A stretch of DNA of 8,862 bases from a virus (IMGVR_UViG_2537562091_000008:1-8862), one strand, 5' to 3'; shown: positions 2,412 through 8,862, counted from the first letter of the stretch. Numbers and translations: made by a program. Notes: a model not told the origin generated them from the letters alone.

Positions 2412-2729
2412 TCACACCACCACGCCATCCTGCAGCGCGCTGTTGATGAAGTACGTAACACGCCCCATCACCTCCACCTCTTCCGCCGCCTCCACTTCGA
2501 TCGCTTCACCATCATCCGTGATTAATGCCCTTCCCATCACTCTGGCAAATTGCGTTCTGCCGCCGGACAAAATCAGCAGAACCTGATTCTGAACCAGCCT
2601 GGTGCACGGCTGGGACGGAAGTCGCTGTCGTTCTCAAAATCGGTGGAGTTGCATGACAAAGTCATCGGGCATTATCTGAACATAAAACACTATCAGTAAG
2701 TTGGAGTCATTACCGACAATGCGCAGGAA
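2412..2729 (-). pseudogene. Decayed coding remnant convergent with intS (one in-frame TGA, no credible start codon)
   Basis: Minus-strand frame reads [31 protein letters not shown]-[TGA at 2634-2636][73 protein letters not shown], ending at TGA 2412-2414, only 10 bp from the intS stop. Protein-like composition, but interrupted and in a different frame from the ORF fragment upstream of it. Confidence 0.2.
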
Positions 2730-2899
2730 TCACGAAACTCGTTCAGATCAGGCTTATTACCATCGACTTTAACGGCAGTATTTGGCTTAAAATAAAAACC
2801 AGCGCCCCACCCGTTACCGCGCACTTCAATAATGGCAATGCTGTTAATTCATTTAACCTCTCCACCGTCAAATTTGAAAGCACCGCTTTCTGTTTTCAT
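2693..2899 (-). pseudogene. Small ORF interrupted by an in-frame TGA, translationally coupled to the upstream 61-aa ORF
   Basis: ATG at 2899-2897 lies 1 nt after the TAA of the 61-aa ORF and is preceded by GGAG (spacer about 10 nt). Reads MKTESGAFKFDGGEVK-[TGA 2849-2851][51 protein letters not shown], stop TGA at 2693-2695. Missed by the ORF track because of the internal stop. Confidence 0.3.
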
Positions 2900-2900
2900 T

Positions 2901-3086
2901 TTAATCATTCTCCGTAACAGGTTCATTGTGAGCAGCATTTAGTACTCGCTGGAGTGGCTGGTCATTTTCGCGATCTAATTCAGCCTGTAATGTATTCATT
3001 GAAGAATTAAAAGCAGGAACTTCATGACCGCTAAGATTTACGCGAAGCATAAACTGCATGATATTTTGAATAGTTTGCTTATCCAT
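2901..3086 (-). CDS. Hypothetical small acidic protein (61 aa) immediately downstream of the tailspike gene
   Basis: ORF MDKQTIQNIMQFMLRVNLSGHEVPAFNSSMNTLQAELDRENDQPLQRVLNAAHNEPVTEND. Good Shine-Dalgarno (AGGA, 7-nt spacer) before the ATG at 3086-3084. Starts 12 nt after the tailspike stop, consistent with co-transcription. No family recognised. Confidence 0.5.
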   Translation of the reverse strand: MDKQTIQNIMQFMLRVNLSGHEVPAFNSSMNTLQAELDRENDQPLQRVLNAAHNEPVTEND

Positions 3087-3098
3087 TTTATTGTCCTG

Positions 3099-4535
3099 TT
3101 AAGTTAAACCAATTAATCCATGCCCGGTTGAAGCATGTAAGTCCTGAATTAATGCTGCAACCACCTTTGCTAAATCTTCGTGAGTTATTGTTCCAGAGTT
3201 AAATGCTGCTCGGGATACGGTGCCGGTTGGCGATCCCCATCCCGTCCTCCTCTCTGAAATAACTTGATTGCCATTAAGTCGTATTCTTAAGTTGTTGAAG
3301 TTAGCCCAGTTTTCAGCCCTGTTGAAACTCAAATGTGTTGTATTTGCCGGGCCCGTTCCTACCGTAATTCGTTGATTGTCGCCCATCAAAATTGCGCAGT
3401 TGTTTGAAAATCCAGCTTCAGAAAATGAAATTCCACTCCTAAAATAATTTGTTCTAAATCTAATGCCGTTTGCAGCTCTAGATGATAGAGATCCCTCAAG
3501 TCTGATGTATTCGCCATTACCTACCTCGGTTAGTTCCTCTGTTGGAGTGGAAATAGAATTACCTCTAAACAACATTCCTGTCCAGATATAACCATTTGGA
3601 GCTTCACTCCCTCTTCCGATGGTAATCATCTGTGTTACTGGATTGCTTTTATCCTGAGTTACACATACCAACCCTCTTACAGATCCTTGCAGTGTATTCT
3701 CCATCCATCCTTTATCGGGACCTCGATTATTCAGATTAAATTCATGTGCAATAGTGCTAATCGCTCCATTCTGCACTGCATCTCCTAATACGGCACCATA
3801 TGACCACCCCCCCCATGTTTCGGCTTGCGGATTTCTTGATTCTCCACGCATGTGGTGACCAATTGAATGCCCATTCCCGCCCTCATGCTTAGCAACACTT
3901 GTAGTTGTGCATGTATATGCACTTCCTGACACCTTGCGCAAAGAGTTATAAATTACCCCCTGATCCCATCGTTTGATGCCGTCATCCCTAGTTGCAGAAC
4001 TAATTTTTTCCAGCCAAATAATGGGATCTGGAATTGGTGTTTCTGGTATGGAGAATCTCTGTCGTGTAGCATTTTTATATATGATAGTTTCATTGTTATA
4101 AATATTGTCACCAGCTGCATCTGAACCAGTCCATCCTGAGCCAGCATAAAAATTATTAAGTCCATCACCAGACTGTCCAGTCAAAACTACTCTTAACTGA
4201 TCCGGGTCATACTTCAGCACATTCGGAAAATAGAACTGATGCGCACCGTACGCATCATAAACAGCCATAGAATGGCCTTGCACGGTAACGAACTTGGCAA
4301 TCTGTCCGTTATATACCGGATATCCAGCAGCGTTAATGATGATTGGTTGAGAAACAGGAATGTGAGAACCGTCTTCGTTCTCTACATAAACCTGAATCTG
4401 GTTTTCAGGGTTTACCGGGTCAGTGTCAATTTTACCGATATAAATTTTGCCATTGGCTACGGCTTTAAAAGAACGAGCCATAGTGAAGAGTTGCGAAGGC
4501 ATGCTTACCACAACATTTGCGGTGATATCTGACAT
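3099..4535 (-). CDS. Phage tailspike protein: P22 gp9-like head-binding N-terminal domain fused to a divergent receptor-binding domain
   Basis: N-terminal ~115 aa ([97 protein letters not shown]...NVLKYDPDQ) align closely with the P22 tailspike head-binding domain as I recall it; the remaining ~360 aa are unrelated to the P22 endorhamnosidase body. Start set at ATG 4535-4533 (GGAG 7 nt upstream) rather than the upstream ATG at 4583. Visibly AT-rich relative to neighbours. Confidence 0.85.
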
Positions 4536-4656
4536 TTCATTGCTCCAGACGAATGATATGATGCAACCATGATGTGATTGCATACCGAAATGGTACTATT
4601 GAGTATTTATCCAGTAGGTTACGATGCCATTCCACCCAACTGGTGAGGCATCAAGG
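4536..4656. promoter_or_regulatory. Divergent control region between the tailspike and mnt genes, with a candidate operator (inverted repeat ATGCAA-N11-TTGCAT, 4561-4583)
   Basis: 121-bp gap between divergent start codons. Inverted repeat read directly. A plausible plus-strand promoter for mnt (-35 TTGCAT 4578-4583, 17-nt spacer, -10 GAGTAT 4601-4606) overlaps the repeat. Contains a TAGGT motif (4614-4618) that resembles part of the P22 mnt operator half-site as I recall it. Confidence 0.3.
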
Positions 4657-4923
4657 ATGTACAGCAAATACGACGAGGCGCAGTTTCACTTGAGACTTCC
4701 GCATGAACTCCACGCGAAAATTAAGCAGCGTGCGAAGATGAATAACAGGTCGCTGAACTCAGAGATAATTGCAGCGATTGAAGAATCATTGGCTAAACAA
4801 AGCTCTGCATCTGTTTACATTGACGATGCAGAGCGTATGGCAGAACAACAATCTGAGATGGTTAAGAAAATTGTCTTTGATACGCTTAAGACCATGTATA
4901 GCAATAATAAAAAGGAAACATAG
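4657..4923 (+). CDS. mnt: Mnt-like ribbon-helix-helix transcriptional repressor (P22 immI-type)
   Basis: 88-aa product MYSKYDEAQFHLRLPHELHAKIKQRAKMNNRSLNSEIIAAIEESLAKQSSASVYIDDAERMAEQQSEMVKKIVFDTLKTMYSNNKKET, closely parallel to P22 Mnt as recalled (FNFRMPMEVREKLKFRAEANGRSMNSELLQIVQDALSK ... NDAERLADEQSELVKKMVFDTLK). Alternative upstream ATG at 4624 would add 11 residues. Confidence 0.8.
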   Translation: MYSKYDEAQFHLRLPHELHAKIKQRAKMNNRSLNSEIIAAIEESLAKQSSASVYIDDAERMAEQQSEMVKKIVFDTLKTMYSNNKKET

Positions 4924-4993
4924 AAATCTAGTTTCCGGCTAAAATGGCATTGCCTTCATGATATCCTGTGAAAAACTAAGGAGAGTTAACCAT

Positions 4994-5479
4994 ATGAAAA
5001 AATCACTGTTAATTATCCCGCTTCTGCTGGTTGGATGCGCAAAAGTAAGTGACTATCAAGCAAGTTGCGAACAACGCTATCAAAAGCTTAGCGATATGGC
5101 TAATTGCCTTGATGCCAGTGTGAAGAACGACTCACGCATGGCATCAGCACCAACACCTAAGCTGTATGTCCTTGCTGCAAAGATGCTCGGGCAAGGTGTC
5201 GATGAAGGCAAGATAAGTGACGCACAGGCAAGACTTGAGCTTCAGAATCTTTATGTTCAATTACAAAGCCAAGAACAAGCCCAACAAATAGCACAAAGCC
5301 AAGCATTCCAGCAGGCTTTATTGAATTATCAGGCTGTAAACACAATGCAAGCGATCGAGCAAAAAGCGCGCCAGCCTGTTATAACTCAACCTTACCCAAC
5401 ACGCGTTGACACTTACACAAACTGCAATTCAGGGTTTGGAAATACAGTCACATGCAACAGTAGCAGTAACATCAGATAA
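4994..5479 (+). CDS. Prophage-encoded lipoprotein (candidate superinfection-exclusion / lysogenic-conversion protein)
   Basis: ATG at 4994 preceded by AAGGAG (4978-4983). N-terminus MKKSLLIIPLLLVGC is a type II signal peptide with lipobox LVGC; the residue after Cys is Ala. Mature part has a Cys-rich N-terminal segment, a Gln-rich predicted helical segment (QNLYVQLQSQEQAQQIAQSQAFQQALLNYQAVNTMQAIEQKARQ) and a C-terminal Cys pair. Same strand as and 70 bp downstream of mnt. Confidence 0.65.
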   Translation: MKKSLLIIPLLLVGCAKVSDYQASCEQRYQKLSDMANCLDASVKNDSRMASAPTPKLYVLAAKMLGQGVDEGKISDAQARLELQNLYVQLQSQEQAQQIAQSQAFQQALLNYQAVNTMQAIEQKARQPVITQPYPTRVDTYTNCNSGFGNTVTCNSSSNIR

Positions 5480-5569: not shown

Positions 5570-7567
5570 CTATTCTGACAACGAATCAGACTTAGCACCC
5601 TGCGTCAGTGCATTAATCGCTTTTTGCGCTTGCTGCATGGCTTTCTCAAACGCTGTCGATCCGCGTGGTGTGTTTGCCATTCGGAGCATTGCATTTCTGA
5701 ATGGTTCGCTCTCATAGGCGCGAGTAAGAAGTCCGTAGCTTACCGCTGCGCCAGTTGTCGCCGGGTTCATTGCTGTCCCATACCCGATAATGAACGGGAT
5801 GGTTTGCTGCCCTGTTGGTGTTGTTACTGCCGCTTTTGCAGCCTGCTGCGTGGATTGCAGGTAGTTTTTCAATCCTTTCAGATAAGCAGCGTCCTGCCCC
5901 TTAAATGTGATGCCAGTCTGGTTTTGCAGGATGTTAAGCTGTCGAAGGAACTGATCAGGGGAACCCCCTGATTTCTCCATCGCCTTTCCAATGATGCCAT
6001 TGCGCATTTGCGCCCTGCCAACACGACCAACTGAGTTATACAGCGTCTTAATTTCCGATTTGTTCTTGCTGAATAGCATGTTGTTGACAACTTCCGGCGT
6101 CAGATCGCCTTTCATGAGAACATTCTTCAGCCTGGTATTCTTTAGTTTCGCCGCTTCGTCAGCGTAGACGGCATTGGCCTGCTGATATTTACGGAGAGTA
6201 TCGTTGCCAAGATTCTGACCAATGGCACCATTGATATCGTCTGTCATCGCCTTGTAAACGCGCTGAATGGCAGCATCGGAACGGTTTGGTAACACTGGTC
6301 GTTCCCCCTTCACGTCCATTCTGAACTGGCTGCGCAGATCGCTTAATTGCTTCAAATCCAGATTTACCGGACCATCAGGACTAGCATTGCGAACAAGCTC
6401 ATCACGATAGGACTGAAGTTTTGAAATAGTCTCGTTATCAGCAACCTTACCAAGCTTCTGCAGGTTAGATATTTCTGTATCAATCTGCTGAATTGCTCGC
6501 GCAGGCTGAATGTTTACTCCAGCCATAGCATTCTGAACCTGCTCCAGTCGATTACCGGCGGCACGACGAATTCCTGATGTTTTCGCTTTAAGGCTGTCAA
6601 TAACAACCGCTGGATCATACTCGCCGAATTTATCAGCAAATCTCTGCACCAACTGACTTCTCGCTTCCTGTTGCGTTGCTCTCATTCCGCTTGTGCCAGC
6701 CAGGGGAATATTTTCTGCTGTAGTCTGCGCCATTTTCCCGACGCGGGAAGTAGGCTGTAACAGGTCTGTGGTGTGCAGAGGCACTCCTTCACGCTCTGCA
6801 AATCTGATAGCTTGCTGCGCTTCTGGTGCAATAGCACCACGAACGCCACGATAAGCAGCGCCTAATCCACGTCCGGCAGCGTTAATAGCGCCGCCAGCCA
6901 GAACGCCAACGCCTAAATCGGTGGCGAGTGCTTCCGCATCATCTTTCGCACTATTTGCAGCAAGTGATCCAACTGCGTTTTCTGCTAGAAGGCGAGTTGC
7001 CCCCTGAGCAATTCGACCAGCAAGTGTTGGTGCCTGTGTTGCCGCTCTCTCAACGCCAGCAGGAGTGAGGTAAGGCAATGCTTCAGCAAATACCCTTCCC
7101 TCTGTCGTTTGTGGAGTCAGCGCGCCTTGCTGAAGGCCAAAGTCCTGCTCTAATCCCTGCGTTGTTACTCGTGGTGCTGGTTGATATGTACCATCGCCAA
7201 TGCCGAGTTTACCGCCAGCCCAAGCCGCCGCGCTTGTTACAGCATCAGCAACTGATGCAGGTATATTTGCCACGTTCACGCCAGCCTGCACCAGTCCGCG
7301 ACCAGTCTCTTTTACTGCTTCGCCAAGATCAGACATAAATCCACTTTGCTGTGGTTGTTGCTGTGCTACTGGTTGCTGTGTCTCCACTGGCTGTACAGAT
7401 GGCAATGGATAGGCAGCATAGAAAGCTTGCTTAGCCTGCTCTGCATTTTCTCCGGCTTGCGGGGCCACGACTTCATTGAAGTATTGCTCCTGAGCTTGCG
7501 CTTTTTGTTCTGGTGCTAACGCCTGATACTGTGGAGAGGCGATAACATCTTTCCATGCTTTAGCCAT
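5570..7567 (-). CDS. Phage ejection (internal virion / DNA-transfer) protein, P22 gp16-like by position
   Basis: 665-aa ORF, the last gene of the late operon before the immunity/tailspike region, which is where gene 16 sits in P22-like genomes. Start ATG overlaps the upstream gene's stop (TAATG at 7565-7569). Long Ala/Gly/Gln-rich low-complexity segments. Assignment is by synteny and composition, not by recalled sequence identity. Confidence 0.55.
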   Translation of the reverse strand: MAKAWKDVIASPQYQALAPEQKAQAQEQYFNEVVAPQAGENAEQAKQAFYAAYPLPSVQPVETQQPVAQQQPQQSGFMSDLGEAVKETGRGLVQAGVNVANIPASVADAVTSAAAWAGGKLGIGDGTYQPAPRVTTQGLEQDFGLQQGALTPQTTEGRVFAEALPYLTPAGVERAATQAPTLAGRIAQGATRLLAENAVGSLAANSAKDDAEALATDLGVGVLAGGAINAAGRGLGAAYRGVRGAIAPEAQQAIRFAEREGVPLHTTDLLQPTSRVGKMAQTTAENIPLAGTSGMRATQQEARSQLVQRFADKFGEYDPAVVIDSLKAKTSGIRRAAGNRLEQVQNAMAGVNIQPARAIQQIDTEISNLQKLGKVADNETISKLQSYRDELVRNASPDGPVNLDLKQLSDLRSQFRMDVKGERPVLPNRSDAAIQRVYKAMTDDINGAIGQNLGNDTLRKYQQANAVYADEAAKLKNTRLKNVLMKGDLTPEVVNNMLFSKNKSEIKTLYNSVGRVGRAQMRNGIIGKAMEKSGGSPDQFLRQLNILQNQTGITFKGQDAAYLKGLKNYLQSTQQAAKAAVTTPTGQQTIPFIIGYGTAMNPATTGAAVSYGLLTRAYESEPFRNAMLRMANTPRGSTAFEKAMQQAQKAINALTQGAKSDSLSE

Positions 7568-8862
7568 TAATCACCCCATAGTGAAGAAAAATTACTGCCA
7601 GTAGTAGGTTGTTGCGCTGGCGTATTCTGTACTGGCTCCTGATAATCAAACTGTTTTTTAACAGTGCTCAACTTGCTTTCAAGCTGATTTCTAATCTTTC
7701 CGATAGAGTCACGAAAAGCCTTTTCACTCATTTTGGGGCTTAGGGCACCAACCGCATCGGATAATTTTTTACCCTCAGCATCTGAAAGAGCACCCATACC
7801 CTTCAGGGACTGCACCATAGGAAGGAATGTTTGAGCTTTAAAGGTGTCGAGCCTTGCTTCAAAGTTAGCCGCATCAGAGCCAGGAACTGTCGGAAACGCT
7901 GAGCGAATTCCTACTGCTTTTGAAAGGCCGGGGCTTTGCTCTATCTCGTTGAGAGAATCAAGCGCGGTGCTGAACGTATCAACTGCACCCTGAGCTGCGG
8001 CCTGCCTGTCAGCGCGGGCTATGTCAGCCTTTTGCCGAACATCTGCCTGTTTCTGTTTTAGCTCTTCAAGCTTTAACTGATTGCTTTCTCTGGCTATCTG
8101 TCTGTCCAGAGCCTTTTCTTGTAACTCTGCTCTTTGTATTTCTCGGGAAAGAGCAGCATTCTGTGCGCTGATGTTCTGTCCACGTATCTGGATGTCCTGA
8201 CCTCGAGCTGTTAGTGCTTCACCTGCCTGATTGCTGCGGATTGTCTCTGCCAGCCTGCCTCTGTCAATTTCACGACCAGCCATCTTGTCCTGAACATTGA
8301 AGTAATCAATCGGACCAAGCGCAGCCATCCCAAGGTGATCAACAAACTCACCAAATCCTGAAGGATTCTGCTGATACATCTGAGCAACGTTGTTAGGGTC
8401 AACAGCGACGCGCGCCAGTTCCTTGGCGTTATTTTGCAGCCACGATTGCATTGCTTCTGGAGATGAGGCCGCAAGGCGTGCGCCAGCCGCTAAGGTGCCG
8501 ATAGAATTACGCTGGTCTTCATCAATGAATCCCATGCCTTTACGAACGGATTCAATCTGGTCTGGATATTGAGTAGCCAACTGACGCAAAGCACCGCGAT
8601 CACCAGACGCATAAGCATTAGCGTACGCCTGCTGGAATTCTTTCTTCCGCTGAGCCTGCTTCTCCTGCTGAAACACCCCCGCAATACCTGAAAGGCCTTG
8701 CAAAGCAGTCAGCCCAACATTGTTAGCGCCTGAACGCTCAATATCATTGTTCTGCCTGATAAGCTGAAGCGTGTTGCCGATGTCATTTACGCTCGGAGCG
8801 TTTGAGTTGACACCACCGATACCAGCCAACAATCCGCCATTTGTTCCTTGCCAAGTAGCCAT
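7567..8862 (-). CDS. Phage ejection protein, P22 gp20-like by position (start coincides with window edge; may be 5'-truncated)
   Basis: 431-aa ORF beginning MATWQGTNGG exactly at the window boundary, immediately upstream of and coupled to the gp16-like gene. Contains a charged predicted coiled-coil segment (AQNAALSREIQRAELQEKALDRQIARESNQLKLEELKQKQADVRQKADIARADRQ). Confidence 0.5.
   Translation of the reverse strand: MATWQGTNGGLLAGIGGVNSNAPSVNDIGNTLQLIRQNNDIERSGANNVGLTALQGLSGIAGVFQQEKQAQRKKEFQQAYANAYASGDRGALRQLATQYPDQIESVRKGMGFIDEDQRNSIGTLAAGARLAASSPEAMQSWLQNNAKELARVAVDPNNVAQMYQQNPSGFGEFVDHLGMAALGPIDYFNVQDKMAGREIDRGRLAETIRSNQAGEALTARGQDIQIRGQNISAQNAALSREIQRAELQEKALDRQIARESNQLKLEELKQKQADVRQKADIARADRQAAAQGAVDTFSTALDSLNEIEQSPGLSKAVGIRSAFPTVPGSDAANFEARLDTFKAQTFLPMVQSLKGMGALSDAEGKKLSDAVGALSPKMSEKAFRDSIGKIRNQLESKLSTVKKQFDYQEPVQNTPAQQPTTGSNFSSLWGD

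What the first reader, a model, noticed from the sequence alone, without database searches (positions are those of the whole stretch)
2901..3086. Intact 61-aa acidic ORF co-transcribed directly behind the tailspike gene
It has a strong ribosome-binding site, a 12-nt gap after the tailspike stop, and an acidic C-terminus (PVTEND). Small proteins riding on late or tail transcripts at prophage ends are often accessory factors. I do not recognise the family.
Basis: partly seen in the sequence, partly recalled or inferred. Interest (0 to 1): 0.45.

Follow-up and report, generated by a model that had tools for sequence, protein, structure and literature searches.

The report
Small partner gene of phage tailspike
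The 61-codon reading frame is a real, conserved gene that travels as a fixed pair with one type of phage receptor-binding (tail fibre/tailspike) domain across very different phages, so it is most likely a tiny helper protein for building that fibre rather than a prophage 'extra' gene.

Summary
The ORF is confirmed on the minus strand (3086→2901): 61 aa, AGGA 7 nt upstream, 12 nt after the stop of a P22-type tailspike, net charge about −5. It is RefSeq WP_000361030.1, 'hypothetical protein'. It is coding: pN/pS is 0.07–0.32 against 13 diverged relatives. A profile finds 254 clusters (50% identity) of 40–70-aa proteins sharing F-x2-R-V-x-L-x-G-x-E-V-P-A-F-N, predicted as a two-helix hairpin with a disordered charged tail. 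No Pfam, NCBIfam, PADLOC, PDB or fold match. The close subfamily always sits −4 to +26 nt downstream of receptor-binding proteins carrying the window tailspike's C-terminal region (ending …ALIxDLxxHGLIG), whatever the N-terminal anchor. Hosts include P22-like and lambdoid prophages and Phapecoctavirus, Kagunavirus, Aeromonas, SU10-like and BPP-1-like phages. Loci chosen through the receptor-binding domain alone all had a 39–59-aa ORF next to it (2 of 4 family members). Best reading: a dedicated late-expressed partner, probably an assembly chaperone or cap, of this domain. This is inferred, not shown. The 'prophage-end accessory factor' reading is not supported. In the window the next cassette gene is dead (nonsense codon plus IS1 truncation).

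The parts
2901..3086 (-). Small ORF, 61 aa (WP_000361030.1). The conserved core is codons 1-38 (2973-3086) and the variable acidic tail is codons 39-61 (2904-2972). The stop TAA is at 2901-2903.
   Evidence: ORF; conserved core and motif; AF2: helices 3-16 and 24-40, tail pLDDT below 50; pN/pS 0.07-0.32; exact RefSeq identity, 'hypothetical protein'
3087..3098 (-). 12-nt intergenic spacer holding the Shine-Dalgarno AGGA (3094-3097), 7 nt before the ATG.
   Evidence: Homologous loci have spacers of -4 to +26 nt, typically 10-12. No terminator-like site was found here.
3099..4535 (-). Tailspike / receptor-binding protein, 478 aa from Met17 (the longest ORF reaches 4583).
   Evidence: P22-type head-binding domain; cluster P0175, 478 aa, 99% identical, 166 member sequences
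4197..4535 (-). N-terminal P22-type head-binding (anchor) domain of the tailspike.
   Evidence: Pfam PF09008 at 2e-66 over residues 17-129. PDB matches to the Sf6 and P22 tailspike N-termini.
3102..4196 (-). Receptor-binding region with no Pfam family. It is shared by tail fibres and spikes that carry other anchors. It ends in the conserved module ...[50 protein letters not shown] (about 3102-3250).
   Evidence: no family. (homologues with PF09008, PF18668, phage_tail_N or other N-termini; phmmer E-values from 1e-247 to 1e-22). (conserved C-terminal module).
2714..2899 (-). Dead second cassette gene ('type B', EVRGxGWxAGFYxKPN family). The ATG is at 2899, 1 nt after the small ORF's stop. A nonsense codon TGA at 2849-2851 replaces the GGA of relatives. 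The 3' part is cut off by IS1 at about 2714.
   Evidence: alignment with L007 and L009
2604..2714 (.). IS1 end remnant of about 111 bp. It marks a deletion that removed the rest of the cassette and the neighbouring conversion genes.
   Evidence: (RefSeq annotates a partial IS1 transposase at the same place in strain CFSAN061770), and comparison with strain PK12

Best explanation
The 61-aa protein is the dedicated small partner of the tailspike's C-terminal receptor-binding region. It is made late in infection from the tailspike transcript, using its own Shine-Dalgarno 12 nt after the tailspike stop. Its conserved 38-residue two-helix hairpin (F12, R15, L18, G20, E22-V-P-A-F-N27, L33) most likely binds the conserved C-terminal module of the receptor-binding protein (...TGWxxPTGTxxRxAF...LAxxVxALIxDLxxHGLIG). 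By doing so it would help the three chains fold and trimerise, or cap the tip. That is the job an intermolecular tail-fibre chaperone does. The charged disordered tail would keep the complex soluble. SHOWN: the gene is real and under purifying selection. It belongs to a large uncharacterised family. It is inherited as one block with this receptor-binding region across unrelated virion types. INFERRED: physical binding, the chaperone or cap role, and late co-transcription.
For: (1) Coding signature. Over codons 1-38, pN/pS is 0.07-0.32 against 13 diverged relatives, and the mean over 15 loci is pS 0.60 against pN 0.10. Invariant or near-invariant residues persist at 30-40% overall identity across 99 family members.
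(2) Family size. There are 254 clusters at 50% identity with E<=1e-3, nearly all stand-alone proteins of 40-70 aa.
(3) Fixed position. In every close relative the upstream gene ends ...HGL(I/F/M)G(L/P)T and the small gene starts 8-26 nt later. The nieznany fibre looks like an exception only because of a frameshift in an A-run.
(4) The pair crosses phage types while the N-terminal anchor changes. It occurs with the P22 head-binding anchor (window), Tail_spike_N after GpJ in lambdoid prophages and Kagunavirus, Phapecoctavirus myoviruses, an Aeromonas siphovirus between the tape-measure and minor tail proteins, an SU10-like podovirus between capsid and adaptor genes, BPP-1-like phages, and a 236-aa protein just upstream of the terminase and portal genes. 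All these upstream proteins match the window's receptor-binding region at phmmer E-values from 1.6e-55 to 5.1e-22.
(5) Pairing by HMMs. Among the highest-scoring small proteins, 22 have such a C-terminal module ending within 26 nt upstream. Three more (L014, L042, L137) were missed by the script but have HGLI-type ends by eye.
(6) Test from the other side. Four loci were picked only by homology to the receptor-binding region. All four have a 39-59-aa ORF 0-10 nt downstream, and two of them are family members at E 3e-25 and 3e-20.
(7) More distant family members also sit next to genes whose commonest PHROG matches are tail fibre, virion structural protein and endolysin.
(8) Established precedent, from my own knowledge. 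The chaperones of lambda Stf (Tfa), Mu and P2 fibres and T4 gp37 (gp38) are encoded directly downstream of the fibre gene and act on its C-terminal tip. T4 gp57A is a 79-aa helical, acidic fibre chaperone.
(9) The protein has no signal peptide or membrane segment and its core is helical. That fits a cytoplasmic helper.
Against: No experiment or complex model was available, so binding and chaperone activity are not shown. The AF2 model of the receptor-binding region was too poor to use (pLDDT 44). A two-helix hairpin gives no informative fold matches. Lower-scoring family members, such as the marine group that sits between a 115-aa ORF and a fibre of about 900-1,200 aa, do not follow an HGLIG-type protein. 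The partner may therefore be a more general feature, or the family may have several clients. Two of the four domain-selected loci carry a different small protein, so the family is not strictly obligatory. Gene linkage alone would equally fit an inhibitor or masking role, or a small virion component. One amino-acid-identical small-protein core is paired with two different fibre C-terminal subtypes (L009 against nieznany), so there is no tight one-to-one co-variation.
Confidence: 0.55

Rival explanations
1. It is an inhibitor or mask rather than a folding helper. On this reading the small acidic protein binds the finished receptor-binding domain inside the cell and blocks its glycan-binding or enzymatic site until assembly or release. 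The genetic layout would resemble the immunity proteins encoded directly behind colicin and pyocin killing domains.
For: The genetic evidence is the same as for the main explanation: tight downstream linkage to one C-terminal domain family. The protein is small, helical and acidic. An insignificant Foldseek row matches a pyocin immunity protein (E=8.3) and carries no weight.
Against: There is no homology to any immunity family. Nothing indicates that the receptor-binding region harms the producing cell. No catalytic family was recognised in it. The conserved feature shared by all partners is the extreme C-terminal helix and HGLIG module. That looks like a trimerisation or tip element rather than an active site.
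Confidence: 0.12
2. It is a small structural component of the virion, a cap or adaptor that stays bound to the distal end of the spike or fibre. On this reading it may dock the next cassette proteins (the 74-97-aa 'type A/B' proteins ending ...IDC).
For: It lies in structural gene blocks of lytic phages. In enterobacterial and Aeromonas modules one or two further small genes follow it, overlapping or nearly so: 17-nt overlap for type A and 1-8 nt for type B.
Against: Many loci have the small gene but none of the further genes, for example Kagunavirus, L018, L143 and L147. In the window lineage the second gene is destroyed while the small gene and tailspike stay intact. No virion proteomics was found for any carrier phage.
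Confidence: 0.15
3. It is a prophage accessory (moron-like) factor, for example a lysogenic-conversion or superinfection-exclusion gene sitting at the integrase-proximal prophage end.
For: In the window and its E. coli relatives the gene lies between the tailspike and the integrase/argW end. P22-like phages keep conversion genes there. Relatives carry a GT2 glycosyltransferase nearby.
Against: The gene occurs at the same position in lytic phages and in the middle of tail modules. It has no promoter-like or terminator-like signals of its own, no membrane segment and no signal peptide, and no hit in the defence library. Its linkage is to the receptor-binding region, not to integrase-proximal position.
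Confidence: 0.05
4. It is a hitch-hiker. The ORF is real but functionally unrelated to the fibre, for instance a lysis-timing or regulatory peptide. Its conserved core would mainly serve as a homology patch where receptor-binding cassettes recombine.
For: The small-ORF core, together with the last 15 nt of the tailspike, is the only stretch of the 2850-3150 query that still matches Phapecoctavirus at the DNA level (80% over 2964-3113). Mosaic joints fall right after codon 38: homology to strains PK12 and 19KM1803 starts at 2973, and tail type co-varies with the type of second gene. Conserved patches flanking receptor-binding domains have been proposed as recombination hot spots (PMC10408124). 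In several loci the next genes are lysis genes.
Against: Synonymous sites are far from conserved (pS 0.54 window against nieznany, up to 0.89) while the protein is conserved. Selection is therefore on the protein. Pairing with one domain family holds across phage types that share no DNA similarity. That is not expected for an unrelated function.
Confidence: 0.08

Closest known systems
Tail fibre assembly proteins encoded downstream of fibre genes (lambda Tfa, Mu U/U', P2 G; Pfam PF02413) and T4 gp38
   Same: The gene lies immediately downstream of the receptor-binding protein gene. It is linked to the fibre's C-terminal tip rather than to its anchor, and it moves together with that tip when fibres are shuffled between phages.
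   Different: There is no sequence similarity: no Pfam or PHROG hit to these families. The protein is three to four times smaller (45-65 aa against about 175-260 aa). It is a bare two-helix hairpin with a disordered tail. Function has not been tested.
T4 gp57A (79-aa general chaperone for long and short tail fibres)
   Same: It is very small, helical and acidic, it has no enzymatic motif, and its presumed client is a trimeric fibre (own knowledge of gp57A; for this protein).
   Different: No detectable homology. gp57A is not encoded next to its clients and serves several fibres. This gene is welded to a single domain family.
C-terminal intramolecular chaperone domains of tailspikes and fibres (Peptidase_S74; K1F endosialidase, T5 pb1)
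   Same: The presumed task is the same: helping the C-terminal end of a trimeric receptor-binding protein to fold.
   Different: Those chaperones are part of the same polypeptide and are cleaved off. Here the tailspike shows no such domain, and the candidate helper is a separate gene with its own start and ribosome-binding site.
Small Ig-like and 'hand-like' proteins encoded after the central tail spike of lambda-like siphoviruses (PMC12309495)
   Same: They are uncharacterised small ORFs directly behind a receptor-binding gene, and a structural or chaperone role has been proposed for them on positional grounds.
   Different: Those are beta-rich Ig-like or 23-kDa proteins following the J-type central spike. 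This protein is a helical hairpin following a side fibre or tailspike with the HGLIG-type end.

Membership tests
Caudovirales tail fibre assembly protein (Tfa; Pfam PF02413) | Sequence match to the PF02413 profile | tested here: not met
   The Pfam scan of the 61-aa protein at E<=1 gave only an insignificant NET2A_C hit. The PHROG scan gave only phrog_18977, function unknown, at E=0.004.
Caudovirales tail fibre assembly protein (Tfa; Pfam PF02413) | Encoded immediately downstream of the fibre gene and inherited together with the fibre's C-terminal tip | tested here: met
   The gap is 12 nt in the window. The same arrangement is seen with one C-terminal domain family in more than 20 distinct loci from different phage types.
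Caudovirales tail fibre assembly protein (Tfa; Pfam PF02413) | Binds the fibre tip and is required for fibre trimerisation | not testable with these tools
   This needs co-expression or pull-down experiments, or a multimer structure prediction.
T4 gp57A-type fibre chaperone | Homology to gp57A | tested here: not met
   No Pfam, PHROG or NCBIfam family and no PDB sequence match.
T4 gp57A-type fibre chaperone | Small, helical, acidic, cytoplasmic protein | tested here: met
   61 aa with 9 D/E against 4 K/R. AF2 predicts helices 3-16 and 24-40 with core pLDDT 80-88. There is no hydrophobic segment long enough to span a membrane.
Prophage moron / lysogenic-conversion gene | Restricted to temperate phages and placed outside the virion-assembly modules | tested here: not met
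   The gene is present in Phapecoctavirus, Kagunavirus, Aeromonas phage AsC4_1 and SU10-like and BPP-1-like contigs, inside structural modules.
Prophage moron / lysogenic-conversion gene | Own promoter and terminator, expressed in the lysogen | tested here: inconclusive
   The consensus scan shows no terminator between the tailspike and the ORF. The only promoter-like site nearby lies inside the ORF, and the total number of promoter-like sites does not exceed that in shuffled sequence. No expression data were available.
Anti-phage defence / immunity proteins | Match to a known defence or immunity family | tested here: not met
   PADLOC gave no hit. Foldseek against PDB and BFVD gave nothing below E=1.
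Uncharacterised 'LxGxEVPAFN' small-protein family (defined here) | A 40-70-aa stand-alone protein with the motif F-x2-R-V-x-L-x-G-x-E-V-P-A-F-N followed by a low-complexity charged tail | tested here: met
   The window protein is the seed and carries every nearly invariant residue (M1, F12, R15, L18, G20, E22, L33).

The most novel reading that the evidence does not exclude
The LxGxEVPAFN hairpin proteins are a previously unnamed, widespread class of mini-chaperones of about 50 aa, or tip caps. On this reading they are required to fold one of the most mobile receptor-binding modules of tailed phages (the domain ending ...ALIxDLxxHGLIG). They would have to be carried along whenever that module is transplanted between podo-, sipho- and myoviruses, including in engineered host-range swaps.
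Probability: 0.45. Interest if true: 0.6.

Novelty: new variant of a known kind. Interest (0 to 1): 0.42.

Why it matters
Receptor-binding proteins decide phage host range, and they are the parts most often swapped in phage engineering and tailocin design. Such swaps often fail because an unrecognised helper gene is left behind. Here a roughly 50-aa gene, called 'hypothetical' wherever a source names it and missing from Pfam, NCBIfam and PHROG function tables, forms a fixed two-gene unit with one widely exchanged receptor-binding module. If it is needed for folding or function, three things follow. Annotation pipelines should keep the pair together. Host-range engineering with this module should include the small gene. 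The hairpin would also be a minimal model for how trimeric fibre tips are chaperoned. For this particular window the biological news is modest. The gene is ordinary for its cassette, and the cassette is partly decayed.

Tried and rejected
1. Curated libraries gave nothing useful for the small protein. Pfam, PHROGs, NCBIfam and PADLOC were scanned. The PDB was searched by sequence. Foldseek was run against PDB and BFVD. A two-helix hairpin is too simple for fold search.

2. The AF2 model of the receptor-binding region, built from a 14-sequence alignment, came out at pLDDT 44. I did not use it and ran no fold search on it.

3. I considered in-frame read-through of the tailspike stop into the small ORF, because the two share a frame in the window with a 12-nt gap. 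I rejected it: spacer lengths in relatives (−4, 1, 3, 5, 8, 10, 11, 12, 26 nt) do not preserve the frame.

4. At first the acidic tail looked like a possible fusion artefact of the IS1 deletion, because homology to strains PK12 and 19KM1803 stops at 2973. I rejected this. The same 61-aa form with the same tail occurs upstream of intact type-B genes (L009, L010), and Phapecoctavirus has a related tail.

5. The genome-contig scan matched patterns, but tblastn confirmed nothing. The viral-contig scan with alignment A6 also found nothing. The broad alignment A2 was too diverse for pattern design.

6. Literature searches found no paper describing this small protein.

7. The window holds only the argW tRNA-Arg as a structured RNA. 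No RNA element explains the region.

Full report
**1. What is in the window**

The window is the integrase-proximal end of a P22-like prophage inserted at argW in Escherichia coli. On the plus strand it holds:
- yfdC (1-933)
- tRNA-Arg(CCU) (1009-1083)
- intS (1209-2402)

On the minus strand it holds:
- a tailspike
- DNA-transfer and ejection protein genes (5570-7567 and 7567-8862)

**2. Checking the observation**

The reported ORF exists at 2901-3086, but on the minus strand. It has 61 codons, running from ATG at 3086 to TAA at 2903-2901.

The upstream ORF (3099-4583, minus) is a tailspike.
- Residues 17-129 match Pfam Head_binding at 2e-66 and the N-termini of the Sf6 and P22 tailspikes in the PDB.
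- The likely true start is Met17 at 4535. That gives 478 aa, the length of the 99%-identical cluster P0175.

Between the tailspike stop (3101-3099) and the ATG lie 12 nt that contain AGGA, 7 nt before the start. No terminator-like hairpin separates the genes.

The protein has 9 acidic and 4 basic residues and ends ...EPVTEND. The description is therefore correct. 'Strong' overstates a 4-base Shine-Dalgarno. The ORF's length alone is unremarkable, since the window has 61 ORFs of at least 40 aa.

**3. It is a real gene**

The exact sequence is RefSeq WP_000361030.1, 'hypothetical protein'. A near-identical cluster member has been seen on 604 contigs.

I compared the first 38 codons across 15 loci that include the window.
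- Synonymous differences dominate: mean pS is 0.60 against pN 0.10.
- Window-versus-relative pN/pS is 0.07-0.32, with pS as high as 0.89.
- This is the opposite of the 'nucleotide conservation without coding signature' that would have refuted the finding.

The word-indexed search found 25 clusters at 90% identity in Enterobacteriaceae. A profile of those, run against 1.84 billion representatives, found 254 clusters at 50% identity with E<=1e-3. Nearly all are stand-alone proteins of 40-70 aa.
- The shared core is M-x10-F-(M/L)-x-R-V-x-L-x-G-x-E-V-P-A-F-N-x2-M-x-A-L.
- M1, F12, R15, L18, G20, E22 and L33 are nearly invariant across 99 diverse members.
- A variable, charged, low-complexity tail follows the core.

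AlphaFold2 predicts helix 3-16, a loop, helix 24-40 and a disordered tail. Core pLDDT is 80-88 and the overall value is 74.

No family name exists for this protein.
- Pfam, NCBIfam and PADLOC give nothing.
- PHROGs gives one weak hit to an unknown-function family.
- PDB sequence search and Foldseek give nothing below E of about 1.
- Every name given by a source is 'hypothetical protein'.

**4. What it travels with**

The gene's constant neighbour is not the prophage end. It is the C-terminal receptor-binding region of the upstream protein.

In every close relative the upstream gene ends ...L-A-x2-V-x-A-L-I-x-D-L-x2-H-G-L-(I/F/M)-G-x-T, and the small gene starts 8-26 nt later, typically 10-12. 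Phage nieznany seemed to be an exception. Its fibre gene carries a frameshift in an A-run, and correcting it restores ...ALITHGLIGPT followed by an 11-nt spacer.

The N-terminal anchor of the upstream protein changes with the phage:

| Phage or contig type | Anchor or position |
|---|---|
| Window, PK12, 19KM1803, L149 | P22 head-binding domain |
| Lambdoid prophages and Kagunavirus LM02P1 | Tail_spike_N, downstream of a GpJ-type protein |
| Lytic Phapecoctavirus nieznany, tuntematon, ECML-183-2 | tail-fibre cluster |
| Aeromonas siphovirus AsC4_1 | between the tape-measure and minor tail proteins |
| SU10-like podovirus contig | between capsid and adaptor genes |
| BPP-1-like contigs | next to Bbp19/GP7 genes |
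| Metagenomic contig L145 | 236-aa upstream protein, just upstream of terminase and portal genes |

All these upstream proteins match the window's receptor-binding region, with phmmer E-values from 1.6e-55 to 5.1e-22. All end ...HGLIG.

I paired the two with HMMs over all fetched loci.
- Of the 27 unique small cores scoring above 65 bits, 22 were flagged with such a module ending just upstream.
- Three more (L014, L042, L137) have one by eye but were missed by the script's cut-offs.

Those loci had been chosen through the small gene, so I also tested from the other side. Four loci were chosen only by homology to the receptor-binding region.
- All four have a 39-59-aa ORF 0-10 nt downstream.
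- Two of the four are family members, at E 3e-25 and 3e-20.
- The other two carry other small ORFs of similar size that do not match the family profile. One is an actinobacterial (Georgenia) prophage and one is a metagenomic contig.

More distant family members sit beside other genes. One example is a marine group with the order 115-aa ORF, small ORF, then a fibre of about 900-1,200 aa. The commonest PHROG matches of these neighbours are tail fibre, virion structural protein and endolysin.

**5. The rest of the cassette and its state in the window**

In enterobacterial and Aeromonas modules one or two further small genes follow the small gene. Their starts overlap it or nearly so.
- 'Type B' is 74-97 aa and contains ...EVRGxGWxAGFYxKPN...
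- 'Type A' is 80 aa and contains ...YIRVELPRVxGKY...
- Type A proteins and nieznany's type B protein end ...IDC. Other type B proteins end differently.

These are seen. The variable tail of the small protein co-varies with which of these follows. Mosaic joints fall right after codon 38, and homology to PK12 starts at 2973.

In the window the type-B gene is dead.
- It starts at 2899.
- It carries TGA at 2851-2849 where relatives have GGA.
- It is cut at about 2714 by an IS1 end, whose remnant spans 2604-2714.

The IS1 remnant abuts the last 64 codons of a UmuD'/HumD-like 104-aa gene at 2412-2606. Compared with strain PK12, the deletion removed three things:
- the 3' part of the second cassette gene
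- a GT2 glycosyltransferase
- a 79-aa gene

The tailspike and the small gene remain intact in this scarred lineage.

**6. How it most likely works**

Several features point to a cytoplasmic helper or partner of the fibre's C-terminal module:
- tight translational proximity to the fibre gene
- inheritance as one block with a single C-terminal domain family, whatever the virion type
- absence of membrane or secretion signals
- a tiny helical core with a soluble acidic tail

This is the pattern known for lambda Tfa, Mu and P2 fibre chaperones and T4 gp38, which are encoded directly downstream and act on the fibre tip. T4 gp57A shows that a protein of about 80 aa, helical and acidic, can chaperone fibres. 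These comparisons rest on established knowledge, not on tests made here.

I therefore favour an intermolecular assembly chaperone, or a tip cap, made late from the tailspike transcript.

Shown:
- reality of the gene
- purifying selection
- size of the family
- linkage to the domain

Inferred:
- binding
- the chaperone role
- timing of expression

The rival readings are an inhibitor or mask, a retained structural cap, an unrelated hitch-hiker that serves as a recombination patch, and a lysogeny moron. The report's rival entries weigh each one. The moron reading is the least compatible with the distribution.

**7. Comparison with what is known, and novelty**

The protein is not a member of the Tfa (PF02413), gp57A, gp38 or intramolecular-chaperone families by any sequence test. 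It shares only genomic logic and, presumably, task with them.

I found no paper describing it. A 2025 paper proposes structural or chaperone roles for different, beta-rich small ORFs behind central tail spikes (PMC12309495).

I rate it a new variant of a known kind: a new, very small family of receptor-binding-protein partner genes. As a sequence it is already in databases as a hypothetical protein. In this window it is an ordinary member of its cassette.

The practical interest lies in annotation and in host-range engineering with this mobile receptor-binding module.

Noticed in passing
window 2714-2899 (minus): The gene that follows the small ORF ('type B' cassette gene) is a pseudogene. It has a GGA-to-TGA nonsense change at 2851-2849 relative to L007 and L009, and its 3' part is cut off by an IS1 end.
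   Followed up: yes
window 2604-2714: A remnant of an IS1 end, about 111 bp, marks a deletion. Relatives without it (E. coli PK12, 19KM1803) carry here the complete second small gene, a GT2 glycosyltransferase on the other strand, and a 79-aa gene.
   Followed up: partly
window 2412-2606 (minus): This stretch holds the C-terminal 64 codons of a 104-aa protein (WP_096842063.1 in PK12). The protein's N-terminus, GFPSPAGDYVEQR..., looks like a UmuD'/HumD-type (S24 peptidase-like) protein. Here it is truncated by the IS1-associated deletion. The same gene ends lambdoid prophages that carry the cassette (L138).
   Followed up: partly
window 3099-4583 (minus); L003, L004, L005: RefSeq annotates this tailspike in the closest complete genomes as a pseudogene fragment holding only the head-binding part ('missing C-terminus'). 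Yet the 478-codon frame is open, and cluster P0175 is annotated as a full-length protein. The pseudogene call looks like an annotation artefact of an unrecognised receptor-binding region.
   Followed up: partly
L001 about 4140-4200 (Escherichia phage nieznany, gene nieznany_226): The deposited fibre gene ends early (...ARYVKNYLML*). A one-base shift in an A-run restores ...KKLSDALITHGLIGPT*, followed by an 11-nt spacer and the small gene. This is either a sequencing error or a genuine homopolymer frameshift.
   Followed up: partly
L148 3001-4429 (Georgenia sp. AZ-5 chromosome): A 43%-identical homologue of the receptor-binding region, also ending ...ALIDDLRTHGLIGA, sits in an actinobacterial prophage just upstream of a tape-measure-like gene. 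A 49-aa ORF outside the family follows it. The module therefore crosses the Gram-negative/Gram-positive divide.
   Followed up: no
window 4624-4923 and 4958-5479 (plus): Two plus-strand genes lie between the tailspike and the DNA-transfer gene. One is an Arc/Mnt-like small DNA-binding protein with weak YlcI/YnfO and TprA hits. The other is a 173-aa protein with no family. Related prophages carry different immI-like content here (antirepressor, Rap1a/Tai-family immunity protein).
   Followed up: no
L136 5001-5777 (Aeromonas phage AsC4_1 ORF21-23); L138 5001-6337: Some modules carry the full series: small protein (102 aa in AsC4_1, with a long extra C-terminal part), then a type-B protein, then a type-A protein. 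Types A and B have cysteines at similar positions; type A proteins and nieznany's type B protein end ...IDC. The two types may be distant paralogues. Their function is unknown.
   Followed up: no
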